IMG/VR virus record: IMGVR_UViG_3300025874_000005
Span: 100,119-164,118 of that record
DNA: 64,000 nucleotides
Source of the DNA: a virus
Direction: 5' to 3' (one strand)
Shown here piece by piece: positions 33,990 to 48,677 of this stretch. Every line of letters starts with the position of its first letter. Position 1 is the stretch's first letter. The notes beneath the pieces are model-generated. The model saw only the letters and a list, made by a program, of their open reading frames with translations, did not search any database and had not been told where the DNA came from. The translations under genes were made by a program, and so were the position numbers.

Positions 33990-36900
33990 ATGGCATTAGA
34001 TAAAATAAAAAAGTCGAATAGATTACTCCAGAGTAAGAGATATACAATGGAGCAGAGTACTGATGCTCAGGAGGCATTCACAAGAACTCTCGACATTAAT
34101 GCTGGTGATGTTTATATAAGAGAAAATTTTGTTCCCTTAAATAATTTACCATATTCTGGTAGTGGACAGAACCAAGATACAATAGAATCAGGTTCAGCTT
34201 TAACAGCTGTTGATATTGTAAAGTTTCACTTCCAACATCAATTAACACCATCATCGGTTGTTAATGGTAGTAAAACAGAAGTATTTTTCTTTATATCAAA
34301 ATCAGCACATGATCCTACAATAGCTGTTACTCCTCAAATTATACAGGATGGACAACAAACAAACTTTTTATCACCAAAATATTCAGATGCTTCCTTAACA
34401 TTTAAAAATACTGAGGATAATGTACCCGCAGGAAACGGTACACCTGGATATAATGTTACTGTTAGAGTAAATGGTACTGAACAAGATTCAGCTTTTTATC
34501 AATTTGATTATAAAACAGGTGTAATACAATTCGTAGATAATTCAGTCTCACCATCAACCGGAGATACTGTCGTTTTATCAGCATACCAATATGTAGGTCC
34601 TACATTAGCAGATGGTGGTGTTGGTGGAGGTAATGCTTTTCCATTTTCAGGATCAGCACAAATAACAGGATCAGTTGGGGGTGTTCCAGGTGGATTCGCA
34701 GTAACCGGTAGTAGTACATTTGATGTAAGTGGTACCGGAGATGATTTTTCTATAATATCAGCTCCAATACAAGATAGACCTGAATTATTAACATATAACC
34801 CTTCAACAGGTCTTATAGGATATGTAAATGCAACTAGTGGTACTAGTGGATTTTCAGGTTCAAGTGGTACAGCAGGCCAATCTGGTACTTCAGGTACAAG
34901 TGGTTCATCAGGTTCAACAGGAACAAATGGTACTTCAGGAGAATCTGGTACTTCAGGAACATCAGGTGAAAGTGCTACTTCAGGTACATCAGGTACATCA
35001 GGTACTTCAGGTACATCAGGTGAAAACGGAACAAACGGTACTTCAGGTTTAAGTGCAACAAGTGGTTCTTCAGGAACAAGTGGTACTTCAGGTGAATCAG
35101 GCACAGCAGGAACAAGCGGAGAAAGTGCAACATCAGGCTCAAGTGGTACTTCAGGTACTTCAGGTGAAAGCGGCACAGTAGGTACATCAGGAGAAAGTGC
35201 AACATCAGGCTCAAGTGGTACATCAGGTACTTCAGGAGCAGATGGAACAAGAGGTACTTCAGGTTCAAGTGGTACAAGTGGTACTTCAGGTACATCAGGT
35301 ACTTCAGGAGCAGATGGGACAAGAGGTACGTCAGGAGAAAGTGCAACATCCGGCTCATCAGGTACTAGTGGTACTTCAGGTGAATCAGGCACAGCAGGAA
35401 CAAGCGGAGAAAGTGCAACATCAGGCTCAAGTGGTACTTCAGGTACTTCAGGAGCAGATGGAACACGCGGAACTTCAGGAGAAAGCGCTACTTCAGGATC
35501 AACAGGTACTTCAGGTACATCAGGTTCAAACGGAGTAGCAGGAGAAAGTGGCTTAAGTGCTACAAGTGGTACATCAGGAACCAGTGGTGCAGATGGTACA
35601 TCAGGTACTTCAGGTTTAAGTGCAACAAGTGGTTCTTCAGGAACAAGTGGTACTTCAGGAGCAGATGGAACAAGAGGTACATCAGGAGAAAGTGCAACAT
35701 CAGGCTCAAGTGGTACTTCAGGTACTTCAGGAGAATCTGGTACTGCGGGAACATCAGGTGAAAGTAGTACAAGTGGTTCTTCAGGTACTAGTGGTACCTC
35801 AGGAGCAGATGGAACATCAGGTACATCAGGTAAAAGTGCAACAAGTGGTTCTACAGGAACAAATGGAACTTCAGGTTCAAATGGTGTTGCCGGAGAAAGT
35901 GGCTTAAGTGCTACAAGTGGTACATCAGGAACCAGTGGTGCAGATGGCACCTCAGGAACTTCAGGTGTAAGTGGTACAGCAGGTTCATCAGGAACTTCAG
36001 GTACTTCAGGAGCAGATGGAACAAGAGGTACTTCAGGAGAAAGTGCAACATCCGGCTCATCAGGTACTAGTGGTACTTCAGGTGAATCAGGCACAGCAGG
36101 AACATCAGGAGAAAGTGAAACTTCAGGATCTTCAGGAACAAGCGGTACTTCAGGAGCAGATGGAACATCAGGTACATCAGGTTTAAGTGCAACAAGTGGT
36201 TCAACAGGAACAAATGGTACAAGTGGCTCAAACGGAGTAGCAGGTGAAAGTGGCTTAAGTGCAACTTCAGGTACTTCAGGAACAAGTGGAGTTGATGGTA
36301 CATCTGGAACAAACGGAAAAAGCGGAACAAGTGGTTCATCAGGAACAAGTGGTACTTCAGGAGCAGATGGAACAAACGGAACTTCAGGTTTAAGTGCAAC
36401 TTCAGGATCATCAGGTACTTCAGGTACTTCAGGTACTTCAGGAGAATCTGGTACTGCAGGAACATCAGGTGAAAGTGCTACAAGTGGTTCAGCAGGTACA
36501 TCAGGTACTTCAGGTGAAAGTGGAACAAATGGCACATCAGGAGAAAGTGCAACCTCAGGTTCAACAGGAACAAATGGTACATCAGGTTCAAATGGGGTAG
36601 CAGGAGAAAGTGGCCTAAGTGCAACTTCAGGAACCTCAGGAACTTCAGGTGTAGATGGCACCTCAGGAACTTCAGGTGTAAGTGGTACAGGAGGTTCATC
36701 AGGTACATCAGGTACTTCAGGAGCAGATGGAACAAATGGTACAAGTGGTTTAAGTTCAACTTCAGGTTCAACAGGAACAAGCGGTACTTCAGGTGAATCA
36801 GGTACTGCAGGAACATCAGGAGAAAGCGAAACTTCAGGATCTTCAGGAACAAGCGGTACCTCAGGAGCAGATGGAACATCAGGTACATCAGGTTTAAGTG

Positions 36901-39900
36901 CAACTTCAGGTTCAACAGGTACTTCAGGTACATCAGGTTCAAATGGGGTAGCAGGTGAAAGTGGCTTAAGTGCAACTTCAGGAACTTCAGGAACTTCAGG
37001 AGCAGATGGAACTTCAGGTACAAGTGGCGAAAGTGGCGAAAGTGGCTCATCAGGTACTAGTGGTACTTCAGGAGCAGATGGAACATCAGGAACAAGTGGT
37101 CTAAGTGCAACTTCAGGTTCATCAGGTACATCAGGTACTTCAGGAGCAGAGGGAACAAAAGGAACTTCAGGAAAAAGCGGAAAAAGCGGAACTAGTGGTT
37201 CAGCAGGTACTTCAGGTACTTCAGGTGAAACAGGAACAAATGGTACATCAGGTTTAAGTGCAACAAGCGGTTCAACAGGAACAAATGGTACAAGTGGCTC
37301 AAATGGAGTAGCAGGGGAAAGCGGTTTAAGCGCAACTTCAGGTACTTCAGGAACTTCAGGTGTAGATGGTACATCAGGTACAAGTGGTGTAAGCGGAACT
37401 GGAGGTTCATCAGGAACTTCAGGTACTTCAGGAGCAGATGGAACAGCAGGAACATCAGGTGAAAGTAGTACAAGTGGTTCTTCAGGTACTAGTGGTACTT
37501 CAGGTGAATCAGGTACTGCAGGAACATCAGGAGAAAGTAAAACAAGTGGTTCATCAGGTACTTCAGGTACTTCAGGTGAAACTGGAACAAATGGTACATC
37601 AGGTAAAAGTGCAACATCAGGATCAACGGGTACTAATGGTACTTCAGGTTCAAACGGAGTAGCAGGTGAAAGTGGCTTAAGTGCAACTTCAGGTACTTCA
37701 GGAACTTCAGGAGTAGATGGAACTTCAGGTACAAGTGGCATTAGTGGTACAAGTGGCTCATCAGGTACATCAGGTACATCAGGAGCAGATGGAACAAACG
37801 GAACTTCAGGTTTAAGTGCAACTTCAGGATCAGGAGGTACTTCAGGTACTTCAGGAGCAGATGGAACAAACGGAACTTCAGGAAAAAGTGCAACTTCAGG
37901 ATCATCAGGTACATCAGGTACTTCAGGTAAAACAGGAACAAACGGAACTTCAGGTAAATCAAATACTTCAGGTACATCAGGTACTTCAGGTTCCTCAGGT
38001 ACTAATGGTACAAGAGGTTTATCAGGTAAATCAAATACTTCAGGTACATCAGGTACTTCAGGTTCGACAGGTACTTCAGGTACATCAGGTGAATCAGGCA
38101 CAGCAGGAACAAGCGGAGAAAGTGCAACTTCAGGTTCGACAGGTACTTCAGGTACATCAGGTTCAAATGGAGTAGCAGGTGAAAGTGGCTTAAGTGCAAC
38201 TTCAGGAACTTCAGGAACTTCAGGTGTAGATGGCACCTCAGGAACTTCAGGTGTAAGTGCAACAAGCGGTTCATCAGGTACTTCAGGTACAAGTGGTGCT
38301 GATGGTACAGCAGGAACATCAGGTGAAAGTAATTTAAGTGGTACATCAGGTACATCTGGTACATCAGGTACATCAGGTTCAAGAGGTACTTCAGGTACTT
38401 CAGGCGAAAATGGTACATCAGGTACAAGTGGTGTAAGTGCAACAAGTGGTTCAGCAGGTACATCAGGTACTTCAGGTGAAACCGGAACAAATGGTACGTC
38501 AGGTTTAAGTGGTAAAAGTGGTACTTCAGGTTCAGCAGGTACTTCAGGTACATCAGGTAAATCAGGTAAAAACGGCACAGCAGGAACAAGTGGTAAAAGT
38601 TCAACTTCAGGATCAGCAGGTACAAATGGTACTTCAGGTAAAAATGGAACAGCAGGAACAAGTGGTAAATCAGGAACTTCAGGTTCAACAGGAACAAATG
38701 GTACATCAGGTTCAAATGGGGTAGCAGGAGAAAGTGGCCTAAGTGCAACTTCAGGAACCTCAGGAACTTCAGGTGTAGATGGTACTTCAGGTACAAGTGG
38801 TGAAAGTGGAGGAAGTGGTTCATCCGGTACTAGCGGTACTTCAGGAACAGACGGAACAAATGGAACAAAAGGTTCAAGTGGAAATAGTGCAACATCAGGT
38901 TCATCAGGTACATCAGGTACATCAGGTGAAAGTGGAACTTCAGGAACCTCAGGTTTAAGTTCAACTTCAGGAAGTTCAGGTACTTCAGGTACAAGTGGTA
39001 AATCAGGAAAAGATGGTACTGCTGGTACATCAGGTAAATCAAATACTTCAGGAAGTTCAGGTACTTCAGGTACATCAGGTACATCAGGTGAAAGTGGAAC
39101 TTCAGGAACCTCAGGTTTAAGTTCAACTTCAGGATCAAGTGGTACTTCAGGTACAAGTGGTAAAAATGGAACAGCAGGAACAAGTGGTAAATCAAATACA
39201 TCAGGAACAACAGGTACTTCAGGTACAAGTGGTTCAAACGGAGTGGCAGGAGAAAGTGGCCTAAGTGCAACTTCAGGAACCTCAGGAACTTCAGGTGTAG
39301 ATGGAACTTCAGGCACATCAGGTTTAAGTGGTACTGCAGGTTCAAGTGGTACAGCAGGTACTTCAGGTAAATCAGGAAAAGATGGCACTTCAGGTACATC
39401 AGGCAAATCAGGTACTTCAGGATCAGCAGGTACAAATGGTACTTCAGGTAAAAGTTCAACTTCAGGTACCTCAGGTTTAAGTTCAACTTCAGGAAGTTCA
39501 GGAACTTCAGGTACTTCAGGAGCAGATGGAACAGCAGGAACCTCAGGTGAAAGTAATTTAAGTGGTACATCAGGTACATCAGGTACATCAGGTACATCAG
39601 GATCAAGGGGTACTTCAGGTACTTCCGGTAAAAATGGAACAGCAGGAACCTCAGGTTTAAGTTCAACTTCAGGATCAGCAGGTACAGCAGGTACTTCCGG
39701 TAAAAGTGGAACAGCAGGTACAAGCGGTAAATCAAATACATCAGGTACATCAGGTACTTCAGGATCATCAGGTACTAATGGTACAAGAGGTTTATCAGGT
39801 CAATCAAATACCTCAGGTACATCAGGTTCTTCGGGTTCAACAGGTACAGCAGGTACTTCCGGTAAAAGTGGAGTAGCAGGTACAAGTGGTAAAAGTTCAA

Positions 39901-42900
39901 CTTCAGGAACAACAGGTACTTCGGGTACAAGTGGCTCAAACGGAGTAGCAGGTGAAAGTGGTTTAAGCGCAACTTCAGGTACTTCAGGAACGAGTGGAGT
40001 TGATGGTACATCAGGTACAAGTGGTGTAAGTGCAACAAGTGGTTCAGCAGGTACATCAGGTACTTCAGGTAAATCAGGAGCAGATGGAACAGCAGGTACT
40101 TCAGGTAAAAGTGCAACTTCAGGATCAGGAGGTACATCAGGTACAAGCGGTAAAAACGGAACAGCAGGAACCTCAGGTAAATCTAATACTTCAGGAAGTT
40201 CAGGTACAAATGGTACTTCAGGTAAAAATGGAACAGCAGGAACCTCAGGTAAATCAAATACTTCAGGAACATCAGGTACTTCGGGATCATCAGGTACTAA
40301 CGGTACAAGAGGCCTATCAGGTCAATCAAATACCTCAGGTACATCAGGTTCTTCAGGTTCAACGGGTACGGCAGGTACAAGCGGTAAATCAGGAGCAGAT
40401 GGAACAGCAGGAACTTCAGGTGTATCAAATACTTCAGGTTCTACAGGTACTTCAGGTAAGTCAGGAGCAGATGGAACCGCAGGAACCTCAGGTAAATCTA
40501 ATACTTCAGGATCAGGAGGTACTTCAGGTACTTCAGGTAAATCAGGAGCAGATGGAACAGCAGGAACTTCAGGTAAATCAAATACTTCAGGTTCTACAGG
40601 TACAAGTGGTACTTCCGGTAAAAGTGGAACAGCAGGTACAAGCGGTAAATCAAATACTTCAGGTACATCAGGTACTTCAGGATCATCAGGTACTAATGGT
40701 ACAAGAGGCCTATCAGGTCAATCAAATACCTCAGGTACATCAGGTTCTTCGGGTTCAACAGGTACAGCAGGTACAAGCGGTAAATCAGGAAAAGATGGTA
40801 CTGCGGGTACTTCAGGTGTATCAAATACTTCAGGTTCTACAGGTACTTCAGGTAAATCAGGAGCAGATGGAACAGCAGGAACATCAGGTAAAAGTTCAAC
40901 TTCAGGATCAGCAGGTACTTCAGGTAAATCAGGAGCAGATGGAACAGCAGGAACCTCAGGTAAATCAAATACATCAGGATCATCAGGTACATCAGGATCA
41001 TCAGGTATAGATGGGGGTAGTGGTGAAAGTGGCGAAAGCGCTACAAGTGGATCATCAGGTACTTCAGGTACTTCAGGTAAAAATGGTACTGCTGGAACTT
41101 CAGGTGTATCAAATACTTCAGGAAGTTCAGGTACAAATGGTACTTCAGGTAAAAATGGAACAGCAGGAACAAGTGGTAAATCAAACACTTCAGGTACATC
41201 AGGTACTTCGGGTTCCTCGGGTACTAATGGTACAAGAGGCCTATCAGGTCAATCAAATACCTCAGGTACCTCAGGTACATCAGGTTCTTCAGGTTCAACA
41301 GGTACGGCAGGTACAAGCGGTAAATCAGGAAAAGATGGAACAGCCGGAACATCAGGTAAAAGTGCAACTTCAGGATCAGGAGGTACTTCAGGTACTTCAG
41401 GTAAGTCAGGAGCAGATGGAACAGCAGGTACTTCAGGTAAAAGTGCAACTTCAGGATCAGGAGGTACATCAGGTACTTCAGGTAAAAATGGAACAGCAGG
41501 AACAAGTGGTAAATCAAACACTTCAGGAACATCCGGTACTTCAGGTTCCTCAGGTACTAACGGTACAAGAGGCCTATCAGGTCAATCAAATACCTCAGGT
41601 ACCTCAGGTACATCAGGTTCTTCAGGTTCAACGGGTACAGCAGGTACTTCAGGTAAATCAGGAGCAGATGGAACAGCAGGAACATCAGGTAAATCTAATA
41701 CTTCAGGTTCTACAGGTACTTCAGGTAAGTCAGGAGCAGATGGAACAGCAGGTACTTCAGGTGTATCAAATACTTCAGGATCAGCAGGTACTTCAGGTAA
41801 ATCAGGAGCAGATGGAACAGCAGGTACTTCAGGTGTATCAAATACTTCAGGATCAGCAGGTACTTCAGGTAAATCAGGAGCAGATGGAACAGCAGGAACC
41901 TCAGGTAAATCAAACACTTCAGGTTCTACAGGTACTTCAGGTACTTCAGGTAAATCAGGAGCAGATGGAACAGCAGGAACTTCAGGTAAATCAAATACTT
42001 CAGGTTCAACGGGTACGGCAGGTACAAGCGGTAAATCAGGAGCAGATGGAACAGCAGGAACATCAGGTAAATCTAATACTTCAGGATCAGCAGGTACTTC
42101 AGGTAAATCAGGAGCAGATGGAACAGCAGGAACCTCAGGTAAAAGTGCAACTTCAGGATCAGGAGGTACTTCAGGTACAAGCGGTAAAAACGGAACAGCA
42201 GGTACGTCAGGTACTTCAGGATCATCAGGTACAACTGGTTCAAGTGGTGTAGGTGGTGCTGGTGGTGTTTCAGGTGGATCAGGTACATCTGGTACATCAG
42301 GAAAAGATGGTACTTCAGGATCATCAGGTACATCAGGTACATCAGGTACTTCAGGTACTTCAGGTAAAAATGGTACAAGTGGTACATCAGGTATAAACGG
42401 TGCCTCAGGAGCGAGTGGAACACCTTTAGAGGTTTGGGTTGATGATAATACATCATTAGATTATGCTGCAAATATTAAGATAAATGGAGCAAATTATACA
42501 CAAGCATCACCATTTACATTAAATACAGATTTTTCATTAGGTATTACAAACCCATTCCAAATAGGTAAAAACCAACCAGACTTAACTAATACAAGTGCAA
42601 TTAATGGTACAGGATTTATTGAATATCTAATCCCAGGTGCAGATGGTTTTACTGGGGAATTTTATACTGGTGGGGGGAATGCAGGTGGAGTAACTCAATT
42701 TGAATTAGTAGCTTTAAACAGTGCTGGTAATTGGGATGAAGCAGATGCTGATTTATCATCAACAAAGAATTTATTGGGTGTTGCATATAAGGCAACCGGA
42801 GTATTGGTTGATGTTATATTAAGAGGTATGATTAAATCTAAGACTTTTAGTTTTACTGTTGGAGCACCAGTTTATGTTTCAAGAACACCTGGGGGTTTCA

Positions 42901-43013
42901 CACAATCATTAACAGGATTTGTTACTGGTGATTATGTAAGATTAGTAGGACATTCCATAGAAACTAATGTTTTATATTTCAACCCAGAACCAACATGGAT
43001 CTTAATTTCATAA
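33990..43013 (+). CDS. Giant Gly-Thr-Ser triplet-repeat (collagen-like/PPII-like) fibre protein, 3007 aa
   Basis: About 280-aa globular N-terminus, about 2530 aa of period-3 repeats, about 195-aa globular C-terminus; synonymous codon variation across repeats indicates selection on the protein. Confidence 0.85.
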   Translation: MALDKIKKSNRLLQSKRYTMEQSTDAQEAFTRTLDINAGDVYIRENFVPLNNLPYSGSGQNQDTIESGSALTAVDIVKFHFQHQLTPSSVVNGSKTEVFFFISKSAHDPTIAVTPQIIQDGQQTNFLSPKYSDASLTFKNTEDNVPAGNGTPGYNVTVRVNGTEQDSAFYQFDYKTGVIQFVDNSVSPSTGDTVVLSAYQYVGPTLADGGVGGGNAFPFSGSAQITGSVGGVPGGFAVTGSSTFDVSGTGDDFSIISAPIQDRPELLTYNPSTGLIGYVNATSGTSGFSGSSGTAGQSGTSGTSGSSGSTGTNGTSGESGTSGTSGESATSGTSGTSGTSGTSGENGTNGTSGLSATSGSSGTSGTSGESGTAGTSGESATSGSSGTSGTSGESGTVGTSGESATSGSSGTSGTSGADGTRGTSGSSGTSGTSGTSGTSGADGTRGTSGESATSGSSGTSGTSGESGTAGTSGESATSGSSGTSGTSGADGTRGTSGESATSGSTGTSGTSGSNGVAGESGLSATSGTSGTSGADGTSGTSGLSATSGSSGTSGTSGADGTRGTSGESATSGSSGTSGTSGESGTAGTSGESSTSGSSGTSGTSGADGTSGTSGKSATSGSTGTNGTSGSNGVAGESGLSATSGTSGTSGADGTSGTSGVSGTAGSSGTSGTSGADGTRGTSGESATSGSSGTSGTSGESGTAGTSGESETSGSSGTSGTSGADGTSGTSGLSATSGSTGTNGTSGSNGVAGESGLSATSGTSGTSGVDGTSGTNGKSGTSGSSGTSGTSGADGTNGTSGLSATSGSSGTSGTSGTSGESGTAGTSGESATSGSAGTSGTSGESGTNGTSGESATSGSTGTNGTSGSNGVAGESGLSATSGTSGTSGVDGTSGTSGVSGTGGSSGTSGTSGADGTNGTSGLSSTSGSTGTSGTSGESGTAGTSGESETSGSSGTSGTSGADGTSGTSGLSATSGSTGTSGTSGSNGVAGESGLSATSGTSGTSGADGTSGTSGESGESGSSGTSGTSGADGTSGTSGLSATSGSSGTSGTSGAEGTKGTSGKSGKSGTSGSAGTSGTSGETGTNGTSGLSATSGSTGTNGTSGSNGVAGESGLSATSGTSGTSGVDGTSGTSGVSGTGGSSGTSGTSGADGTAGTSGESSTSGSSGTSGTSGESGTAGTSGESKTSGSSGTSGTSGETGTNGTSGKSATSGSTGTNGTSGSNGVAGESGLSATSGTSGTSGVDGTSGTSGISGTSGSSGTSGTSGADGTNGTSGLSATSGSGGTSGTSGADGTNGTSGKSATSGSSGTSGTSGKTGTNGTSGKSNTSGTSGTSGSSGTNGTRGLSGKSNTSGTSGTSGSTGTSGTSGESGTAGTSGESATSGSTGTSGTSGSNGVAGESGLSATSGTSGTSGVDGTSGTSGVSATSGSSGTSGTSGADGTAGTSGESNLSGTSGTSGTSGTSGSRGTSGTSGENGTSGTSGVSATSGSAGTSGTSGETGTNGTSGLSGKSGTSGSAGTSGTSGKSGKNGTAGTSGKSSTSGSAGTNGTSGKNGTAGTSGKSGTSGSTGTNGTSGSNGVAGESGLSATSGTSGTSGVDGTSGTSGESGGSGSSGTSGTSGTDGTNGTKGSSGNSATSGSSGTSGTSGESGTSGTSGLSSTSGSSGTSGTSGKSGKDGTAGTSGKSNTSGSSGTSGTSGTSGESGTSGTSGLSSTSGSSGTSGTSGKNGTAGTSGKSNTSGTTGTSGTSGSNGVAGESGLSATSGTSGTSGVDGTSGTSGLSGTAGSSGTAGTSGKSGKDGTSGTSGKSGTSGSAGTNGTSGKSSTSGTSGLSSTSGSSGTSGTSGADGTAGTSGESNLSGTSGTSGTSGTSGSRGTSGTSGKNGTAGTSGLSSTSGSAGTAGTSGKSGTAGTSGKSNTSGTSGTSGSSGTNGTRGLSGQSNTSGTSGSSGSTGTAGTSGKSGVAGTSGKSSTSGTTGTSGTSGSNGVAGESGLSATSGTSGTSGVDGTSGTSGVSATSGSAGTSGTSGKSGADGTAGTSGKSATSGSGGTSGTSGKNGTAGTSGKSNTSGSSGTNGTSGKNGTAGTSGKSNTSGTSGTSGSSGTNGTRGLSGQSNTSGTSGSSGSTGTAGTSGKSGADGTAGTSGVSNTSGSTGTSGKSGADGTAGTSGKSNTSGSGGTSGTSGKSGADGTAGTSGKSNTSGSTGTSGTSGKSGTAGTSGKSNTSGTSGTSGSSGTNGTRGLSGQSNTSGTSGSSGSTGTAGTSGKSGKDGTAGTSGVSNTSGSTGTSGKSGADGTAGTSGKSSTSGSAGTSGKSGADGTAGTSGKSNTSGSSGTSGSSGIDGGSGESGESATSGSSGTSGTSGKNGTAGTSGVSNTSGSSGTNGTSGKNGTAGTSGKSNTSGTSGTSGSSGTNGTRGLSGQSNTSGTSGTSGSSGSTGTAGTSGKSGKDGTAGTSGKSATSGSGGTSGTSGKSGADGTAGTSGKSATSGSGGTSGTSGKNGTAGTSGKSNTSGTSGTSGSSGTNGTRGLSGQSNTSGTSGTSGSSGSTGTAGTSGKSGADGTAGTSGKSNTSGSTGTSGKSGADGTAGTSGVSNTSGSAGTSGKSGADGTAGTSGVSNTSGSAGTSGKSGADGTAGTSGKSNTSGSTGTSGTSGKSGADGTAGTSGKSNTSGSTGTAGTSGKSGADGTAGTSGKSNTSGSAGTSGKSGADGTAGTSGKSATSGSGGTSGTSGKNGTAGTSGTSGSSGTTGSSGVGGAGGVSGGSGTSGTSGKDGTSGSSGTSGTSGTSGTSGKNGTSGTSGINGASGASGTPLEVWVDDNTSLDYAANIKINGANYTQASPFTLNTDFSLGITNPFQIGKNQPDLTNTSAINGTGFIEYLIPGADGFTGEFYTGGGNAGGVTQFELVALNSAGNWDEADADLSSTKNLLGVAYKATGVLVDVILRGMIKSKTFSFTVGAPVYVSRTPGGFTQSLTGFVTGDYVRLVGHSIETNVLYFNPEPTWILIS
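34833..42423 (+). repeat. 7.6-kb degenerate 9-bp coding tandem repeat (GGT ACT/ACA TCA) with a 351-360-bp higher-order unit
   Basis: ggtacttca/ggtacatca/ggaacaagt units throughout; SNGVAGESGLSATS marker recurs 11 times. Confidence 0.95.
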
Positions 43014-43017
43014 AAAT

Positions 43018-43746
43018 ATGCCTCAAGTAAATTTAGCCCCATATACTACAAACAGCTCTAACTATGCTTTAGGTAATATTAGAAGAACGGGTGTAGGTTC
43101 CTGGACTTCTATTAGAACAGGCACACCAGTTTCAGGAAATGTGTCTCAAACAGGTAATTCTACTAAAAGTATTGGTGTTGCTTGGACTGGAGGTAGTAGA
43201 GGATCATATAGCTTATATAGAAATTATATATGGTATGATGTAACAGCCTACCAAAGCGTTTTAATAACTTCAGCAGAATTAACTTGTCCTACAACGGCAG
43301 GGGTAACTGCTTTAGCACTTCCAGTAATAGCAGTAGATAGTAGTACTGCTTTTAGTAATAATTCAAACACAACATTAAGTTTAAGTCAATTTCTTTCTAC
43401 TTCTTTTGTAGCTTATAGTAATTCTACAAATTGGGCACAAACCACAGGTTTCCAACAAATAACCCTAAATAGTTCAGCAATAGTAGCAATACAAAATGGA
43501 AATAATTTTGGAGTTGGTATTATAGACCATAATTATGATTTTCAAAATGTTCAACCCTCAGGTATTGGATTTGATGGTTTTTATTTAGGTGATATGTCAA
43601 ATGCAACACAAAGATCAAGATGGACATTAACTTTAAATTACATAGCAGGATGGTCAGCCGGAGACATGAATGGAGTGGCAAGTAGTGACATGGGGGAAGT
43701 TAATGGTGTAGCTATAGCAGACATAAGTGAAATTAATGGTATTTAA
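43018..43746 (+). CDS. Ser/Thr-rich beta-sandwich-like structural protein
   Basis: 242 aa; YRNYIWYDVT...ITSAEL pattern; C-terminal 11-residue NGV/NGI repeats. Confidence 0.55.
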   Translation: MPQVNLAPYTTNSSNYALGNIRRTGVGSWTSIRTGTPVSGNVSQTGNSTKSIGVAWTGGSRGSYSLYRNYIWYDVTAYQSVLITSAELTCPTTAGVTALALPVIAVDSSTAFSNNSNTTLSLSQFLSTSFVAYSNSTNWAQTTGFQQITLNSSAIVAIQNGNNFGVGIIDHNYDFQNVQPSGIGFDGFYLGDMSNATQRSRWTLTLNYIAGWSAGDMNGVASSDMGEVNGVAIADISEINGI

Positions 43747-43808: not shown

Positions 43809-46520
43809 ATGAAGAAAATCTTATTTATAGCGCCTCATCTTTCAACAGGAGGACTCCCACAATATTTAACTAAAAAAATTGAACTTATTAAAGATGAGTT
43901 TGAAGTATATGTAGTAGAATGGGTAGATTGTACTGGGGGGAAATTAGTTGTAACCAAAAATAAAATATTAGAATTAGTAGATAATAATAAATTTTTTACA
44001 CTTGAAGAAGATAAAAGTGAATTATTTAATATTATAGATAGGATTACACCAGACATTATTCATTTAGAAGAAATTCCTGAGTATTTTATGGATGATGATA
44101 TAGCTCGAAAGTTATATGATGTAAATAGAAGTTATTTTTTAGTAGAAACATCACATGATTCTTCTATGGATACAGACACTAAAATATTCTCACCAGATAA
44201 GTTTATGTTTGTGTCAAACTGGCAAATAGAACAGTATAAAAACATAGATATACCTAAAATACTGGTAGAATACCCAATTGAATATATCCCCAGACCTAAT
44301 AGAGAAAATGCGTTAAAACGCTTAAATCTCGACCCATCAAAAAAACATATATTACATATAGGTTTATTTACTTCTAGAAAAAACCAAAAAGAATTTTTTG
44401 AATATGCTGAAGCATTACCTGAATATGAATTTCATAGTGTAGGAAACCAGGCAGATAATTTTAAATGGTATTGGGAACCTTTAATGGAAAATAAACCAAC
44501 TAATTTAACTTGGTGGGGTGAACGAACTGATGTAAATAATTTCTATCAATCAATGGATTTATTTTTATTTACATCTAGAGGAAGTAAAAATGATAAAGAA
44601 ACAATGCCTCTAGTAATACGTGAAGCTTTATCTTATCAAATACCACAACTATTATATAATTTAGAAGTTTATCAAAATTATTTTGAAGACTATAATACAA
44701 TTAATTATTTAGATTTTGCAGATTTTAATAAGAACGTTAAATTAATTAAAAATCAACTAAATACCCCTTCTATAATACCCCCAGATGTTGAAGAAAAAGA
44801 AGCATATGTGATTTGTACTTACCCAAATACACAAGCAGTAGTAGATACCACAATAGAATGTATTAAATCATTAAGAAAAAACAGTAATAGAAAAATAATT
44901 ATATCCGCACATTGTCCTGTTCCAAAGGAATTACAGGGTATGGTTGATTATGTTTTTTATGAAAAAAATAATTTATTAACAAAACATACATTCTACTCAG
45001 GTTATTGGATGTATCATGATCAATATGATACCCATGTAAATTTAAAAGGTGAAGATAATGATAGATATCACGGCCCAGCATGTTATACATCCTTCTATAA
45101 CCCAGCAACATTTGCTAAAGAATTAGGGATTGAAAAATTATACTATATTAACTTTGATTATATTCTTAAAGATAGTAGTTATATAGATTATATATCTAAA
45201 AAATTAAATACTCATGATACTTTCTTTGGTGAATATGAAGCACAAGAAGGTAAATGTTATTATACATATTTCTTTGCAGTCAAACCAGATGCAATTTTAA
45301 GACATTGTGATTTTATAGAAACTGAAAATCAATATAATAGTCTTATGGATAAGTATGAGGCTGAATCTAATGGTATTGAAAATTTATATTATCATATATT
45401 TAAAAATAATATAAATAACTATATTGAACCAAAAGAAAAATTTGAATCTGATGCTGAAAAGTATTTTGAATTTGAGGATTATTCAATGATTGAATATTAT
45501 ACTATACTTCCTACAGATGTAGATAATCATTTTTGTCCTTGGATAACTATTTCTAATGCTAAAGAAAGTAAGAATATCTACTATACAGTAGAAAAAAATG
45601 GTGAAGTTATCATTGATAGATTGCTAGAAGTTAGGGGAAAATTTTCATTTTGGGATTTAGTAAAATATGATTTAGATGATAACATCATAGTTACATTTGA
45701 TGTAAAAGATACTAATACTGGAGAAAGTGTAAAATATCATAAATTTAATTTAAATAAAGATTATTTTTTAAATACAATGCCTAATAATGGTATGTTTAAT
45801 TGGAAAGGAGATAGAAGTAGATACAACCCAAAAATTAAACTAATGCATTTAGTTACAGAACCAGATGTAAATGAAAAAGAAATAAGATCAGTAAAAAATA
45901 TTAAAGAATTTTGTGAATCAACAGGTATAGAATACGAACAAAGAATAAATAAAATATGGACTGACTTACCCCCAATTGATACTTGTAATAGACCTGAAGA
46001 TGTTCAAGACAAACCAGGATATTATAAACTAGCACCAGGACATTATGGGTGTTATAAAGCACACACAAATGCTATTATGTCTGAAAATAATAAAGATTAT
46101 GATTATATTTTAATCTTTGAAGGGGATGTTATTGTTGATTCCCCATTTGATGAATTAAAACAAGCTTTAAATCGTTTTAGTAATCTATCTAAATCTAATA
46201 ATCAGGACATTATAGGATTTGGCAACCCTTACCAAAATCGTAATTTAAATGGGCCTAAAATTGAAGACATATACACTAATATATCTCCATTTATACCTGC
46301 ACAATCTTATTTAATAAATAAAAATAAATTACAACTTATTCAAGATAAAATTAAAAATACAAAATGGGATGCTTTTGATATGTGGGTATGTAATGTAGCT
46401 AAATTAAAAGTAGGAACAGCAGAAAAAATTTATACTAAACATCTACCAGGATTTAGTATAATTGAGCAAGAAATAAAAACAACAGACGAAAATAGTCCTT
46501 TAATATACGCTGGAGAATGA
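43809..46520 (+). CDS. Multidomain glycosyltransferase (N-terminal GT-B/GT4-like, central unknown domain, C-terminal GT-A/GT25-like)
   Basis: HLSTGGLPQY, RKNQ, DLFLFTS...ETMPLVIREA (GT4 ExxxxxxxE); C-terminal GHYGCYKAH, ILIFEGD, AQSYLIN, AFD. Confidence 0.8.
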   Translation: MKKILFIAPHLSTGGLPQYLTKKIELIKDEFEVYVVEWVDCTGGKLVVTKNKILELVDNNKFFTLEEDKSELFNIIDRITPDIIHLEEIPEYFMDDDIARKLYDVNRSYFLVETSHDSSMDTDTKIFSPDKFMFVSNWQIEQYKNIDIPKILVEYPIEYIPRPNRENALKRLNLDPSKKHILHIGLFTSRKNQKEFFEYAEALPEYEFHSVGNQADNFKWYWEPLMENKPTNLTWWGERTDVNNFYQSMDLFLFTSRGSKNDKETMPLVIREALSYQIPQLLYNLEVYQNYFEDYNTINYLDFADFNKNVKLIKNQLNTPSIIPPDVEEKEAYVICTYPNTQAVVDTTIECIKSLRKNSNRKIIISAHCPVPKELQGMVDYVFYEKNNLLTKHTFYSGYWMYHDQYDTHVNLKGEDNDRYHGPACYTSFYNPATFAKELGIEKLYYINFDYILKDSSYIDYISKKLNTHDTFFGEYEAQEGKCYYTYFFAVKPDAILRHCDFIETENQYNSLMDKYEAESNGIENLYYHIFKNNINNYIEPKEKFESDAEKYFEFEDYSMIEYYTILPTDVDNHFCPWITISNAKESKNIYYTVEKNGEVIIDRLLEVRGKFSFWDLVKYDLDDNIIVTFDVKDTNTGESVKYHKFNLNKDYFLNTMPNNGMFNWKGDRSRYNPKIKLMHLVTEPDVNEKEIRSVKNIKEFCESTGIEYEQRINKIWTDLPPIDTCNRPEDVQDKPGYYKLAPGHYGCYKAHTNAIMSENNKDYDYILIFEGDVIVDSPFDELKQALNRFSNLSKSNNQDIIGFGNPYQNRNLNGPKIEDIYTNISPFIPAQSYLINKNKLQLIQDKIKNTKWDAFDMWVCNVAKLKVGTAEKIYTKHLPGFSIIEQEIKTTDENSPLIYAGE

Positions 46521-47473
46521 AAATATGCCATGTAGACCCAGCTTGTGGGTTAGATATCCCACCAAAAAATTGGGGAGCAATTGAAAAAATTATTTGGGAA
46601 TTTATAAATAATCAAAAATTACTAGGCCATGAATCTACCTACAAATTATCTTCTCATATTAATCTTGGAGAATTTGATATTGTACATTGTCATGTAGCTA
46701 ATTTAGCAATTGGTTTACAAGAAAGAAATATACCCTATATATTCCAACTTCATGACCACCATGCATTTCATTATGGTAAAGACTCACATATATTTAAAGA
46801 AAATTTAAAAGCTATAGAAGGATCACTTTTAACCTTACTACCAGGTAAATTTTTAGTTGATTATTTTAACCACCCCAAAGCACAATATTTTTCTCATGGG
46901 GTTAATGTTAATGAATTTTATCCTTCACCTAACCCAAATCCTATAAAAATAACAAACCCCAAACTGTTGATGGTTGCAGCTAATGGTTTAGCTGGTGATA
47001 AGGGTTATGATAGAAAAGGATTTAAATATGGATTAGCTTTAGCAGCAAAACATAATTTAGATATAACCATAGCAGGTCCAAACTTTAATAAAGAATTTTT
47101 TAATCAACATTTAGAAATGTTTAATTATCCAAAATTAAACTTAGTCTTTGATACACCCAACAATAAATTATTAGAATTATATCACAAACATGATATTTTT
47201 ATTCACCCTACAATGCTAGAAGCAGGCCACCCAAATTTAACTATGATTGAAGCCGCAGCTGCTGGTTTACCTATAATAGCAAATTGGGAATATGAAACAG
47301 ATTTTCATGGTGCTTGGAGATCACCACGTGATATATTTCACATGGAAGTAGGGTTAAAAGATATAATAAATAACTATGACTATTATAAAGTTAGAGCAGT
47401 AGCTACTGGAAAAGAATTAAGCTGGAAAAACAGAACAAAAGATTTATTAGAAATTTATAAAAATTTTATATAA
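46517..47473 (+). CDS. GT-B glycosyltransferase (GT4-like)
   Basis: IPPKNWGAIE, HGVNVNEF, RKG, DIFIHPT..EAGHPNLTMIEAAAAGLPII. Confidence 0.85.
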   Translation: MKICHVDPACGLDIPPKNWGAIEKIIWEFINNQKLLGHESTYKLSSHINLGEFDIVHCHVANLAIGLQERNIPYIFQLHDHHAFHYGKDSHIFKENLKAIEGSLLTLLPGKFLVDYFNHPKAQYFSHGVNVNEFYPSPNPNPIKITNPKLLMVAANGLAGDKGYDRKGFKYGLALAAKHNLDITIAGPNFNKEFFNQHLEMFNYPKLNLVFDTPNNKLLELYHKHDIFIHPTMLEAGHPNLTMIEAAAAGLPIIANWEYETDFHGAWRSPRDIFHMEVGLKDIINNYDYYKVRAVATGKELSWKNRTKDLLEIYKNFI

Positions 47474-47474
47474 T

Positions 47475-48677
47475 ATGAAAGAAATTTTAATCCAAGAATA
47501 TAATAATTTATCTAAATTACTTATTAAACCAAAACCTCAATCTAACTTTTACCACATTAACTTTATTAATGGGGCTAAATTAGAAATTACAGGTAAAATA
47601 GATAAAAAATATAACATCCAATTTTACGACCAAAATACATTAGAATTACTTTTTGAAAGTGAAATTACAAATAATATGTGGACTAAATTTAACAAAACAT
47701 ATTATATAAATTATAATATTAAAGTAATAGATTTAGAAAATAATACAGTTGTTTTTGAACATAAATTTAATGCAAAAAACAAAAGAGTTTATATTCATTT
47801 TGCCTCAAAAGCCTTAGGGGATACTATAGCATGGTTTCCATTTGCTGAAGAGTTTAGAAAAAAGCACCAATGTGAATTAATTGTTTCTACTTTCCATAAC
47901 AGTATGTTTAAGGAAAACTATCCAAACATTAAATTTATAACTCCTGGAGAAGAACAATTTGACTTATATGCTATGTATGAAGTTGGGTGGCATTATAATG
48001 AAGATGAAAAAATAGATTATAATAAAAATATATCAGATTTTAGAAAACATGGTTTACAAAAATGTAGTGGTGAAATTTTAGGAGTTAACCAATCAGAAAT
48101 TAAACCAAAACTAACATTCAAAAATACAGGATCTACAATAGAAGGAAAATATGTCGTTATAGCACCCCATGGGTCGGCACATGCTAAGTATTGGAATTAT
48201 AAAGGAGGGTGGCAAACAATAATAGATTATTTAAATAATAAAGGTTATAAAGTAGTAATGATAACACAAGAATTATTAGGAGACAAATGGCATGATTCTA
48301 AATTAGGAGGAACTTTAACGGGGGTTATTGATAAAACTGGAGATTACCCTTTAAGTGAAAGAGCTAATGATATGTTAAATGCTAAAGCTTTTATTGGTAT
48401 TGGAAGTGGGTTAAGTTGGTTAGCTTGGGCTTTAAAAACCCCTGTAGTAATGATATCAGGATTTAGTGAAGCTTATAGTGAATTTGAAGATTGTGAAAGA
48501 ATATCATCACCTAAAAATAAATGTTCTGGATGTTTTAATAGAGTAAGATTAGATGCAGGAGATTGGGAATGGTGTCCTGATCATAAGGATACAGATAGAA
48601 TGTTTGAATGTACTAAATCAATAACACCAGATACAGTAATTGCTGCTATAAACCATCAATTAGAAAAATCTCTTTGA
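47475..48677 (+). CDS. Autotransporter O-heptosyltransferase (Aah/TibC)-like protein glycosyltransferase
   Basis: ALGDTIAWFP, KYWN..GGW, FIGIGSGLSWLAWA...VVMISGFS, C-x2-C-x13-C-x11-C metal-finger motif ending FECTKSITP. Confidence 0.8.
   Translation: MKEILIQEYNNLSKLLIKPKPQSNFYHINFINGAKLEITGKIDKKYNIQFYDQNTLELLFESEITNNMWTKFNKTYYINYNIKVIDLENNTVVFEHKFNAKNKRVYIHFASKALGDTIAWFPFAEEFRKKHQCELIVSTFHNSMFKENYPNIKFITPGEEQFDLYAMYEVGWHYNEDEKIDYNKNISDFRKHGLQKCSGEILGVNQSEIKPKLTFKNTGSTIEGKYVVIAPHGSAHAKYWNYKGGWQTIIDYLNNKGYKVVMITQELLGDKWHDSKLGGTLTGVIDKTGDYPLSERANDMLNAKAFIGIGSGLSWLAWALKTPVVMISGFSEAYSEFEDCERISSPKNKCSGCFNRVRLDAGDWEWCPDHKDTDRMFECTKSITPDTVIAAINHQLEKSL

What the first reader, a model, noticed from the sequence alone, without database searches (positions are those of the whole stretch)
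34833..42423. The fibre repeat is hierarchical and not a true collagen: Gly is regularly replaced while the 3-residue register is kept
Seen: there is no Pro in the repeat. Every several triplets the Gly position is taken by Ala, Ser, Asn, Glu or Lys (ES-ATS, LS-STS, KS-NTS, ES-ETS), nearly always after a G-[E/L/K/V/Q]-S triplet. The marker SNGVAGESGLSATS has its Asn codon at 35529, 35880, 36231, 36591, 36942, 37302, 37653, 38166, 38715, 39237 and 39939. Spacings are 351, 351, 360, 351, 360, 351, 513, 549, 522 and 702 nt, all multiples of 9, with a basic unit of 39 triplets. Established: Gly substitutions destabilise collagen triple helices, whereas Gly-X-X polyproline-II bundles (snow-flea antifreeze protein, polyglycine sandwich of T-even gp38 adhesins) use short PPII rods joined by turns. 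Inference: a long PPII-bundle or glycan-stabilised triple helix, potentially a new fibre fold; ice-binding is a weaker alternative.
Basis: partly seen in the sequence, partly recalled or inferred. Interest (0 to 1): 0.7.

Follow-up and report, generated by a model that had tools for sequence, protein, structure and literature searches.

The report
Giant proline-free collagen-like phage fibre
A marine phage encodes a 3,007-residue fibre whose shaft is a proline-free collagen-type repeat in which the key glycine is swapped out about every 24 residues; it sits beside enzymes that probably coat it with sugar, so it is a natural test of how such a helix holds together without collagen's usual stabilisers.

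Summary
ORF 33990-43013 (3,007 aa) holds 843 triplets in one unbroken register: 758 start with Gly and 85 with Ala, Asn, Ser, Glu or Lys. There is one Pro, in the last triplet. All 11 marker coordinates are exact.

A non-Gly triplet follows only G-[KELVQN]-S: 85 of 154 such triplets against 0 of 688 others (p = 3e-74). The commonest spacing is 8 triplets.

The protein is a modular phage fibre. Its N-terminal domain is shared with 92 fibres that carry unrelated shafts. Its C-terminal domain is homologous to the trimeric "bead" of the cyanophage A-1(L) neck fibre.

Downstream lie two glycosyltransferases and a true Aah/TibC-type protein O-heptosyltransferase. In 41 of 44 related phage loci with enough upstream DNA, that enzyme sits beside a Pro-free Gly-Thr/Ser-Ser fibre. 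In 20 of 29 such fibres the Gly replacements also recur every 8 triplets, so the period is a family trait.

Best reading (0.55): a sugar-coated homotrimeric collagen-type shaft of about 0.7 µm with regular soft joints. A polyproline-II (PPII) bundle is not excluded.

This scan had already noted the enzyme-fibre pairing on other DNA. A word search of its notes found none on the periodic Gly replacement.

The parts
33990..43013 (+). Fibre gene, 3,007 aa, intact
   Evidence: a single ORF starting 18 nt after the preceding ORF. It lies in a phage structural block between a head-tail-adaptor-like gene (28684) and the tail sheath gene (51002).
33990..34838 (+). N-terminal domain (283 aa), the probable virion-attachment adaptor
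   Evidence: 76 homologues of 497-2000 aa and 16 of 1653-5263 aa share about the first 210 aa and then carry unrelated shafts. The AF2 core, aa 64-201, is beta-rich and confident. No clear fold match: Foldseek best E 6e-3; VIA best Z 5.1.
34839..42425 (+). 843 in-register triplets (2,529 aa): a Pro-free Gly-Thr-Ser collagen-type repeat with 85 in-phase non-Gly triplets
   Evidence: Pfam Collagen PF01391 scores 277-377 bits on three pieces. Composition: G 771, S 726, T 523.
35526..37652 (+). Six marker-delimited units of 39-40 triplets. Each is 7+8+8+8+8 triplets between replacement sites.
   Evidence: unit sequences; period 351 nt, 7.8 copies, 77% matches.
37653..39938 (+). Four longer marker-delimited units (57, 61, 58 and 78 triplets)
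39939..42425 (+). Distal part after the last marker, rich in GKSGADGTAGTSGKS-NTS, with periods of 72, 81 and 396 nt
42426..43010 (+). C-terminal domain (195 aa). Its last ~115-130 aa form a widespread fibre-end module homologous to the trimeric bead gp82C of phage A-1(L).
   Evidence: 2,502 representative proteins match at E<=1e-3, nearly always at their C-terminus. A profile of 40 members hits PDB chain 8keg_a at residues 120-231, E 3.1e-8. The paper describes gp82 as a trimer and gp82C as a globular trimer. The Pfam Phage_cement_2 hit is below its cut-off (18.7 against 24 bits).
43018..43746 (+). 242-aa ORF of unknown role; not a conserved part of the cassette
   Evidence: No Pfam, PHROG or NCBIfam match. 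Found in 2 of 44 related loci. No match to the bead profile.
43809..46520 (+). 903-aa multi-domain glycosyltransferase (GT4-type domain; weak GT25-like C-terminal domain)
   Evidence: Pfam Glycos_transf_1 at 2.5e-10; Glyco_transf_25 at 2.2e-4, below its cut-off. Present in 43 of 44 related loci with at least 5 kb upstream of the heptosyltransferase.
46517..47473 (+). 318-aa GT4-type glycosyltransferase
   Evidence: Pfam Glycos_transf_1 at 4.9e-8. Present in 43 of 44 related loci.
47475..48677 (+). Aah/TibC-family (BAHT) protein O-heptosyltransferase, 400 aa
   Evidence: NCBIfam TIGR04414 scores 336 bits against a cut-off of 200, E 2.6e-100. E 2.3e-63 to TibC, PDB 4RAP. D110, K230, R286, W305 and the four Cys are conserved; T226 is Ser (the residue list comes from passages of PMC4358343).

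Best explanation
The gene encodes a homotrimeric accessory fibre of a marine Flavobacteria-type myovirus. It is more likely a neck or whisker-type fibre than a baseplate fibre.

Proposed layout and action:
- The 283-aa N-terminal domain docks the fibre on the virion.
- The C-terminal globular domain trimerises and sets the chain register.
- The 843 Gly-Thr-Ser triplets between them wind into a collagen-type triple helix about 0.7 µm long.
- There is no proline, so the helix is held by dense O-glycosylation of its exposed Ser residues. The adjacent TibC/Aah-type heptosyltransferase adds the first sugar and the two neighbouring glycosyltransferases extend it, in the cytoplasm before or during chain association.
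- About every 8 triplets (about 6.9 nm) the motif G-[K/E/L/V/Q]-S-[A/N/S]-T-S puts a side chain where Gly should be, in all three chains at once. The helix relaxes locally there without losing register. These sites act as evenly spaced soft joints, and possibly as landmarks for the enzymes. The result would be a long, hydrated, flexible tether.

Shown here: the sequence anatomy, the homologies and the gene linkage.
Inferred: trimer state, triple helix, glycosylation, the role of the joints, the point of attachment and the tether function.
For: Sequence: one register over 843 triplets with 90% Gly. Pfam Collagen scores 277-377 bits. PHROG matches are collagen-like tail-fibre families.

The shaft occupies the exchangeable middle of a fibre family. 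92 proteins share the N-terminal domain and carry other shafts. Two of the 76 carry uninterrupted Gly-X-Y runs of 37 and 79 triplets, one of them GTSGTSGTT.

Trimer context:
- The C-terminal profile matches gp82C of the A-1(L) neck fibre, E 3.1e-8. The paper describes it as a globular trimer.
- Of 10 relatives' C-termini tested, the 4 picked for the motif all carry Peptidase_S74, directly after their Gly-X-Y region. Pfam names this family 'chaperone of endosialidase'; that it is specific to trimeric fibres is recalled knowledge.
- 13 of 38 related fibres carry the same bead domain.

Glycosylation context:
- TIGR04414 scores above its cut-off, with the TibC catalytic, sugar-binding and Cys residues kept.
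- TibC modifies Ser, not Thr (PMC4358343 passages). Ser fills 608 of 843 Y positions.
- Of 44 phage loci with at least 5 kb upstream of the enzyme, 41 have a Gly-X-Y fibre ORF on the same strand. 43 of 44 have each of the two other transferases.
- The nearest cultured relative has a syntenic fibre without Gly-X-Y and no such enzyme.
- The genome also holds genes whose best matches are the two halves of HldE.

Joints:
- Replacement is strictly context-bound.
- Ser and Asn at the Gly position use TCA and AAT, two steps from GGN, so they are not fresh point mutations.
- The 8-triplet spacing is the mode in 20 of 29 related fibres; pooled, 472 of 858 spacings.
- Gly-to-Ala is accommodated in a triple helix by local relaxation, and Ala and Ser are the least destabilising replacements (review PMC10765305, passages).
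- A phage collagen-like tail fibre has been shown by experiment to be a triple-helical trimer (PMC3368898, passages).
Against: No structural test of a trimer could be run.

No glycan has been measured on any such fibre.

The relatives L012 and L013 replace two consecutive Gly in every 8 triplets. That leaves runs of only six Gly triplets without any Pro, which is hard to reconcile with a stable continuous triple helix.

Arg (194), Asn (175) and Gln (71) are common at the Gly position across the family, and bulky residues destabilise collagen.

Asp-Gly and Asn-Gly, both turn-prone, are frequent.

The HldE-like matches are below their cut-offs (125 against 345 bits; 102 against 181.5 bits), and no GmhA was found, so the sugar donor is unproven.

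The known acceptors of TibC are beta-helix loops, not collagen.

The attachment site is unknown: the N-terminal fold search was inconclusive.
Confidence: 0.55

Rival explanations
1. A PPII-bundle or solenoid fold. Each 24-residue module would fold back as short polyproline-II rods joined by turns, with Gly facing the core, as in snow-flea antifreeze protein or the polyglycine sandwich of gp38 adhesins. The fibre would then be a much shorter ribbon of a new fold.
For: A 24-residue module is conserved across the family: the mode in 20 of 29 fibres. The Gly-free hexa- or nonapeptides, together with a second variable site holding Asp-Gly or Asn-Gly in each module (24-mer profile), could be two turns per module. 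A loss of 25% of the Gly in L012 and L013 fits segmentation better than one continuous helix.
Against: Gly is only 30% of the repeat, and Thr or Ser fill the other two faces. From recall, known PPII bundles need much more Gly. Replacing Gly with larger residues at a turn is not what turns need. The monomer AF2 model of three units has pLDDT 29.3 and pTM 0.12; this is weak evidence because it used a single sequence. The end domains are of trimeric kinds. The register never shifts over 843 triplets.
Confidence: 0.15
2. A glycan brush without an ordered helix. The three chains would be joined only at their end domains, and the repeat would be an extended, mucin-like, heavily O-glycosylated linker with no stable triple helix.
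For: There is no Pro and there are few charge pairs. Interruptions are frequent (10% here, up to 23% in L064). The monomer model is disordered. A dedicated glycosylation cassette is present.
Against: A brush gives no reason to keep Gly at every third residue over hundreds of triplets in fibres whose X and Y residues differ. It also gives no reason to confine non-Gly to one context.
Confidence: 0.2
3. The long-range periodicity or copy number is an assembly artefact. The gene would be real, but shorter or arranged differently.
For: No contig of four public runs spans the repeat, and many alternative joints appear in k-mer contigs.
Against: - The reading frame is open for 9,024 nt.
- The 351-nt units are only 77% alike, and no exact internal repeat reaches 120 nt.
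- Both flanks and the inner pieces are identical in runs of four studies from 2014 to 2023, with all 30 bins covered.
- Independent metagenomes give 38 distinct fibres of the same build, up to 631 triplets within the 10-kb flank fetched.
Confidence: 0.08
4. An ice-binding fibre.
For: Only the Thr/Ser-rich regular surface and the marine source.
Against: No family match or context points to ice binding. The cassette and fibre family also occur in freshwater and other phage contigs, according to earlier scan notes. If glycosylated, the surface would not be a flat Thr array.
Confidence: 0.02

Closest known systems
Collagen-like phage and prophage tail-fibre proteins (for example EPclA of E. coli prophages; PMC3368898)
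   Same: Modular fibre: N-terminal attachment domain, Gly-X-Y shaft, C-terminal trimerisation domain. EPclA was shown to be a trimer with a collagen triple helix that melts at 42 °C (passages). Both match Pfam Collagen (for this protein).
   Different: The longest Col domain reported in that paper is 322 aa and has a single register-breaking interruption. Recombinant EPclA was not glycosylated. Here the shaft has 2,529 aa, no Pro, Thr at X and Ser at Y, 85 in-phase Gly replacements at a regular period, and a linked glycosylation cassette.
TibC-TibA and Aah-AIDA-I: bacterial autotransporter heptosyltransferases and their substrates (PMC4358343)
   Same: The neighbouring enzyme is a member of this family by score and by residues. 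The substrate in both cases is a long, Ser-rich, repetitive surface fibre modified in the cytoplasm at many sites.
   Different: Known substrates are beta-helical autotransporter passengers with 19-residue repeats. Here the presumed substrate is a collagen-type phage fibre, and no autotransporter is present. Two further transferases are linked. Activity, acceptor and sugar are untested.
Neck fibre of Anabaena myophage A-1(L): gp82, gp81, gp80 (PMC10966104; PDB 8KEG)
   Same: The C-terminal module is homologous to gp82C (E 3.1e-8), a globular trimer of a flexible fibre that hangs from the neck. Here the gene lies in the head-neck block, while baseplate genes lie elsewhere in the genome.
   Different: The A-1(L) fibre is a chain of separate trimeric beads about 100 nm long and has no collagen shaft. 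No gp81-like bead gene was found next to this gene. The N-terminal domains are unrelated.
Glycosylated Pro-poor collagens: BclA of Bacillus spores; Riftia cuticle collagen (recalled)
   Same: Both are collagen helices that rely on Thr or Ser and on O-glycans instead of hydroxyproline. BclA glycosylation is described in the review PMC8968730 (passages).
   Different: Those keep Pro at X and put Thr at Y, with Gly uninterrupted. Here Pro is absent, Ser is at Y and Gly is replaced periodically. The Riftia comparison rests on recall only.
Non-fibrillar animal collagens with natural interruptions (type IV and others)
   Same: Interruptions are thought to give flexibility and recognition sites (review PMC10765305, passages).
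   Different: From recall, animal interruptions are mostly register-breaking and irregularly spaced. Here all 85 are in register, follow one sequence context and recur every 8 triplets.
PPII or polyglycine-II bundles (snow-flea antifreeze protein; gp38 adhesin sandwich)
   Same: Three-residue Gly periodicity without Pro.
   Different: From recall, those are compact monomeric domains of short rods with much more Gly. Here there are 2,529 residues in one register at 30% Gly, between end domains of trimeric kinds.

Membership tests
Collagen triple-helix repeat (Pfam PF01391) / bacterial and phage collagen-like proteins | Sequence match to the Gly-X-Y repeat model | tested here: met
   277, 377 and 287 bits on three pieces, against a cut-off of 27.2.
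Collagen triple-helix repeat (Pfam PF01391) / bacterial and phage collagen-like proteins | Gly at every third residue without exception | tested here: not met
   758 of 843. The 85 in-register replacements are A 42, N 29, S 11, E 2, K 1.
Collagen triple-helix repeat (Pfam PF01391) / bacterial and phage collagen-like proteins | Imino acids or another known stabiliser in X/Y | tested here: not met
   One Pro in 2,529 residues. Glycan stabilisation is inferred only.
Collagen triple-helix repeat (Pfam PF01391) / bacterial and phage collagen-like proteins | Flanking trimerisation domain | tested here: met
   By homology only: the C-terminal profile matches gp82C at E 3.1e-8, described as a globular trimer.
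Collagen triple-helix repeat (Pfam PF01391) / bacterial and phage collagen-like proteins | Triple-helical conformation (CD, melting, protease resistance, or a trimer model) | not testable with these tools
A monomer fold cannot show it.
BAHT: Aah/TibC protein O-heptosyltransferases (the neighbouring gene 47475-48677) | Equivalog model TIGR04414 above its cut-off | tested here: met
   336 bits against 200, E 2.6e-100, covering residues 29-393.
BAHT: Aah/TibC protein O-heptosyltransferases (the neighbouring gene 47475-48677) | Catalytic base D110, sugar-binding K230, R286, W305 and T226, and the Cys cluster of TibC | tested here: met
   In the alignment to 4RAP, D, K, R, W and four Cys are identical and T226 is Ser. 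P300, the donor-stereoselectivity position, is Gly (residue list from PMC4358343 passages). That the four Cys form TibC's iron site is recalled.
BAHT: Aah/TibC protein O-heptosyltransferases (the neighbouring gene 47475-48677) | Heptosyl transfer to Ser of a partner protein | not testable with these tools
   Linkage only: 41 of 44 loci.
BAHT substrates (AIDA-I/TibA-type autotransporters) | Beta-helical passenger of ~19-residue repeats plus a beta-barrel translocator | tested here: not met
   The only Pfam match in the repeat is Collagen. The N- and C-terminal domains have no autotransporter match.
PPII / polyglycine-II bundle domains | Compact monomeric fold of short PPII rods | tested here: inconclusive
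   The single-sequence AF2 model of 354 aa has pLDDT 29.3 and pTM 0.12. Gly is 30% of the repeat.
A-1(L)-type neck-fibre bead domain (gp82C-like C-terminal module) | Profile match to gp82 residues 126-241 | tested here: met
   E 3.1e-8 over chain residues 120-231.
A-1(L)-type neck-fibre bead domain (gp82C-like C-terminal module) | Attachment at the neck and chaining with bead proteins | tested here: inconclusive
   No bead-like neighbour gene. The N-terminal fold has no clear match.

The most novel reading that the evidence does not exclude
The conserved 24-residue module is a structural unit in its own right. It consists of six to seven Gly triplets plus one in-phase Gly-free hexa- or nonapeptide, always after G-x-Ser. 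It would define a new class of fibre, in one of two forms. One is a segmented 'glyco-collagen', whose periodic non-Gly knots staple or hinge three sugar-coated chains. The other is a PPII-based fold not yet seen. In either form a virus would build a fibre of up to about 0.7 µm with neither proline nor an uninterrupted Gly ladder.
Probability: 0.25. Interest if true: 0.85.

Novelty: new variant of a known kind. Interest (0 to 1): 0.66.

Why it matters
Collagen chemistry holds that Gly at every third residue is obligatory and that imino acids, or a substitute for them, are needed for stability. This natural fibre family drops proline entirely and breaks the Gly rule at a fixed period, yet keeps the register over hundreds of triplets in many phages.

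If the shaft is a sugar-stabilised triple helix, it offers three things:
- a test of how glycans can replace proline;
- a natural design for collagen with built-in joints;
- a new substrate class for the TibC/Aah enzymes, so far known only from bacterial adhesins.

For phage biology, it would mean that common marine phages carry sub-micrometre sugar-coated tethers. It would also mean that glycosyltransferases near fibre genes act on the virion. The pelagimyophage paper read here (PMC7029224, passages) instead assumed action on host lipopolysaccharide.

Tried and rejected
The central structural question stays open.
- Monomer AF2 of three units (aa 513-866): pLDDT 29.3, no secondary structure. 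This is uninformative beyond giving no support to a self-folding bundle.
- N-terminal domain fold searches: Foldseek against PDB gave no hit at E<=1e-3; the best was the N-terminal region of the CBA120 TSP4 tailspike at 6e-3. The wide VIA-align search gave a best Z of 5.1 (8gtc_G), with phage neck and tail parts among the generic beta-sandwich rows. No attachment site can be named.
- tblastn of the N-terminal domain against 50,697 phage records: no match.
- Search for long proteins (1653-5263 aa) with the same C-terminal domain: none.
- Bead-profile comparison with the neighbouring ORFs 43018, 31432 and 48699: no match.
- gmhA (TIGR00441) in the phage genome: no match.
- PDB sequence search with the repeat: it matched only animal collagens, a collagen fibril model and (PPG)10, all through Gly periodicity. 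There was no phage structure.
- Logan contigs of four runs: the pieces are too short (130-190 nt) to confirm unit order.
- Ice binding: no test was available.
- phmmer with one S74-type C-terminus also picked up a shared junction segment in bead-type fibres, so I did not use that count. I rely instead on the four Pfam-confirmed cases and on nine sequences that show the motif by eye.

Full report
OBSERVATION

The window is the last 64 kb of a single 164,118-bp virus record. All of its substantial ORFs lie on the + strand. ORF 33990-43013 encodes 3,007 residues without a stop.

Between residues 270 and 2820, Gly fills 89% of one codon register and about 1% or less of the other two. Residues 284-2812 (nt 34839-42425) form 843 consecutive triplets with no register shift:
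- The first position is Gly in 758 triplets, Ala in 42, Asn in 29, Ser in 11, Glu in 2 and Lys in 1.
- X is Thr in 493 triplets and Y is Ser in 608.
- The only Pro is in the final triplet.

The marker SNGVAGESGLSATS occurs 11 times at exactly the stated coordinates and spacings. Tandem Repeats Finder gives periods of 351 nt (7.8 copies, 77% matches), 72 nt and 396 nt. The 39-triplet unit resolves into 7+8+8+8+8 triplets between replacement sites.

The context rule is absolute. A non-Gly triplet follows 85 of 154 G-[KELVQN]-S triplets and 0 of 688 other triplets (Fisher p = 3e-74). The autocorrelation of non-Gly sites peaks at lags 8, 16, 24, 39 and 79 triplets.

Ser and Asn at the Gly position mostly use TCA (9 of 11) and AAT (26 of 29). 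These codons are two steps from GGN, so the sites are not fresh point mutations.

ASSEMBLY

The stretch is held in 18 public runs at half or more of its sampled words. These come from 16 studies, all but one labelled marine metagenome, dated 2014-2025. I laid the contigs of four runs from four studies on it:
- Both flanks (34000-35009 and 42347-43013) and many inner pieces of 130-190 nt were identical.
- All 30 bins were covered.
- No contig spanned the repeat, and many alternative k-mer joints appeared.

The longest exact internal repeat is 100-119 nt. The sequence content is thus reproduced independently, but the order and number of the long units are not. Long reads are still needed.

WHAT THE GENE IS

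PHROG and Pfam searches place the gene in a myovirus structural block: terminase, portal, prohead protease, major capsid protein, PhoH, a head-tail-adaptor-like gene, then the fibre, then tail sheath and tube. The capsid protein is 60% identical to that of Flavobacterium phage vB_FspM_immuto. A type IX secretion CHU_C-domain gene elsewhere in the genome also points to a Bacteroidota host.

The protein has three parts.

1. N-terminal domain (283 aa). It has 76 homologues of 497-2000 aa and 16 of 1653-5263 aa. They share about the first 210 residues and then carry quite different shafts and tips. Only 2 of the 76, and 0 of the 16, have Gly-X-Y runs; one of the two is an uninterrupted GTSGTSGTT run of 79 triplets. 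This is the pattern of an attachment adaptor with exchangeable distal parts. Its AF2 model has a confident beta-rich core, but fold searches gave no clear match.

2. C-terminal domain (195 aa). It belongs to a very widespread module, with 2,502 representative proteins at E<=1e-3, and it almost always lies at the C-terminus. A profile of 40 members hits residues 120-231 of PDB chain 8keg_a at E 3.1e-8. That chain is gp82 of the neck fibre of cyanophage A-1(L). The paper describes gp82 as a trimer and its C-terminal domain as a globular trimeric bead, based on an AlphaFold2 model fitted into a 6-Å map.

3. The repeat. It matches Pfam Collagen at 277-377 bits and PHROG collagen-like tail-fibre families.

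Baseplate genes and a second giant ORF lie about 20 kb upstream of the window. This fibre sits with the head and neck genes. That placement, together with the gp82C homology, leans towards a neck or whisker-type fibre, but this is not shown.

THE NEIGHBOURHOOD

Three transferase genes follow the fibre:
- a 903-aa protein with a GT4-type domain and a weak GT25-like domain;
- a 318-aa GT4-type protein;
- a 400-aa protein that scores 336 bits on NCBIfam TIGR04414, 'autotransporter strand-loop-strand O-heptosyltransferase', against a cut-off of 200.

In the alignment to TibC (PDB 4RAP, E 2.3e-63) the third protein keeps D110, K230, R286, W305 and four Cys. T226 is Ser and P300 is Gly. These are the catalytic and sugar-binding residues named in passages of PMC4358343, which also reports that TibC modifies Ser and not Thr.

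Elsewhere the genome holds a sugar-nucleotide cluster. It also holds two genes whose best matches are the kinase and adenylyltransferase halves of HldE, both below their cut-offs. No gmhA was found.

COMPARATIVE TEST

A scan of IMG/VR with the heptosyltransferase found 216 contigs, of which 80 loci were kept, at 56-83% identity.
- A Gly-periodic ORF of at least 20 triplets lies upstream on the same strand in 42 of 80 loci. Among loci with at least 5 kb upstream it lies in 41 of 44; the misses are L038, L042 and L079.
- The 903-aa and 318-aa transferases are each present in 43 of those 44. The 242-aa ORF is present in 2 of 44.
- The immuto phage has a syntenic fibre that shares only the C-terminal module and has no Gly-X-Y run. 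It has no match to TIGR04414.

The 38 distinct fibre ORFs are Pro-free (0-1.2% Pro), with X = Thr or Ser and Y = Ser. They follow the same rule as the window. The triplet after G-T-S is non-Gly in 36 of 1,943 cases. After G-S-S it is 129 of 1,653. After G-[other]-S it is 748 of 2,084. After any triplet whose Y is not Ser it is 53 of 3,661.

When adjacent replacements are merged, the spacing between sites has its mode at 8 triplets in 20 of the 29 ORFs that have at least five spacings. Pooled, 472 of 858 spacings are 8. The other modes are 6, 7, 10, 16 and 19.

The residues at the site differ between relatives. L041 uses [A/K/R/Q/N]-[L/A/T]-S. L012 and L013 use two consecutive non-Gly triplets, [N-I/V-S][A-T-S]. 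Family-wide the replacing residues are A 517, R 194, N 175, S 71 and Q 71.

The C-termini of these fibres vary. 13 of 38 carry the bead module. Of 10 C-termini tested, the 4 picked for the motif all carry Peptidase_S74 directly after the repeat. The N-terminal parts also differ from the window's: 0 of 38 match it. The collagen-type shaft plus the transferase cassette therefore moves as a module among different fibre scaffolds.

INTERPRETATION

The three-residue Gly periodicity fits a PPII-type conformation, not beta strands.

Three observations favour a parallel homotrimeric, collagen-type shaft:
- the single register over hundreds of triplets;
- the position of the repeat as the shaft of fibres whose end domains are of trimeric kinds;
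- the experimental precedent of a triple-helical phage tail fibre (PMC3368898, passages).

Ser at Y would be exposed and matches the Ser specificity of TibC. The tight linkage makes it likely that the fibre is the enzyme's substrate. Glycans could then take the stabilising role of proline. BclA is a reported precedent (review PMC8968730); Riftia collagen is a recalled one.

A Gly-to-Ala site is accommodated in a triple helix by local relaxation with water bridges. Ala and Ser are the least destabilising replacements (review PMC10765305, passages). In a homotrimer each site would therefore make a local soft spot every 8 triplets, about 6.9 nm at 0.286 nm per residue. The full length would be about 723 nm.

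With a one-residue stagger, the residues x, Ser and the replacing residue of the motif G-x-S-[A/N/S] from the three chains lie at one axial level. That could explain why the replacement is tied to the preceding triplet. This is my inference.

WHAT SPEAKS AGAINST IT

- The variants with two consecutive replacements leave only six Gly triplets per module.
- Arg, Asn and Gln are frequent at the Gly position.
- Asp-Gly and Asn-Gly are common.

All three fit a segmented structure at least as well as a continuous helix. It gained no support, however: Gly is 30% of the repeat, and a monomer AF2 model of three units has pLDDT 29.3.

A disordered glycan brush would not explain the conservation of Gly. 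The decisive trimer prediction could not be run.

COMPARISON AND NOVELTY

The nearest known things are:
- collagen-like phage tail fibres;
- the TibC/Aah enzyme-substrate pairs;
- the A-1(L) neck fibre;
- glycosylated Pro-poor collagens;
- interrupted non-fibrillar collagens.

None of them combines a Pro-free Thr/Ser shaft, strictly in-phase periodic Gly replacement and a dedicated heptosyltransferase cassette.

My literature searches gave the following:
- 'heptosyltransferase + TibC + phage' returned 6 papers. None concerns phage fibres, judging by titles and abstract starts.
- 'collagen + phage + proline-free + triple helix' returned 1 unrelated review.
- 'collagen-like + marine phage + glycosyltransferase + fiber' returned 2 papers. 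Their passages assign phage transferases to host lipopolysaccharide or to DNA modification.
- 'virion glycosylation' returned 11 papers, of which I saw the listing. I saw the mycobacteriophage study by Freeman et al. only as a reference.

Supplements were not consulted.

Earlier notes of this scan report the enzyme-fibre pairing, and Pro-free collagen-like fibres, in at least 26 other genomes. A word search of those notes found none on the periodic in-register replacement.

VERDICT

This is a new variant of a known kind, of real interest to collagen and phage structural biology. The fold and the glycosylation are still unproven.

Noticed in passing
G000 contig 83036-91201 (L006:7036-15201), upstream of the window: A second giant ORF (2,722 aa) next to baseplate genes (a gp25-like gene at L006:2648-3052). 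Its only Pfam hit is a pretoxin HINT domain at aa 2095-2223. It is probably the true tail fibre or a cargo-bearing fibre.
   Followed up: no
G000 (L004:12519-13262 and L005:11063-11464): Two separate genes whose best NCBIfam matches are the kinase and adenylyltransferase halves of HldE, which makes ADP-heptose. Both are below their cut-offs. No gmhA is present. They may supply the donor for the fibre's heptosyltransferase.
   Followed up: partly
G000 about 38-48 kb (L004:71-9497) and L005:4226-5365: A sugar-nucleotide and transferase cluster: one GT1, two epimerase/dehydratases, a nucleotide-sugar dehydrogenase and three GT2 genes. These could build the rest of the fibre glycan.
   Followed up: no
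window 34839-42425: There are 70 N-x-S/T sequons in the repeat: 41 are N-G-[ST] and 29 have Asn at the Gly position. No N-glycosyltransferase family was recognised nearby.
   Followed up: no
window about 42180-42260, also L041, L012, L018 and protein P0102: A conserved Gly-dense motif, G-[IV]-G-G-A-G-G-V-[SA]-G-G-S-G, lies about 25 triplets before the C-terminal domain in the window and in several relatives. It may be a hinge or a nucleation site.
   Followed up: no
L051, L052, L069: Some related phages carry two collagen-type fibre genes in tandem upstream of the same transferase cassette. One ends in Peptidase_S74 and the other in a different short C-terminal domain.
   Followed up: no
L053 and window 34770-34850: The junction motif TYNPST..LGYVNATSGTSG, which leads into the repeat, is shared between the window and a fibre with a different, short N-terminus.
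   Followed up: no
window 34508-39406, minus strand: A 1,632-aa antisense ORF and many shorter ones overlap the repeat. I take them to be mechanical by-products of the repeat's composition, not genes.
   Followed up: no
G000 (L003:174-6402; L003:11845-13777; L005:14085-15065; L007:1197-1991): Other cargo genes in the genome: a QueC, PTPS, radical-SAM and GTP cyclohydrolase I set (deazaguanine pathway); a Cpn10/Cpn60 chaperonin pair; a CHU_C type IX secretion-signal protein; and a zeta-toxin-domain kinase.
   Followed up: no
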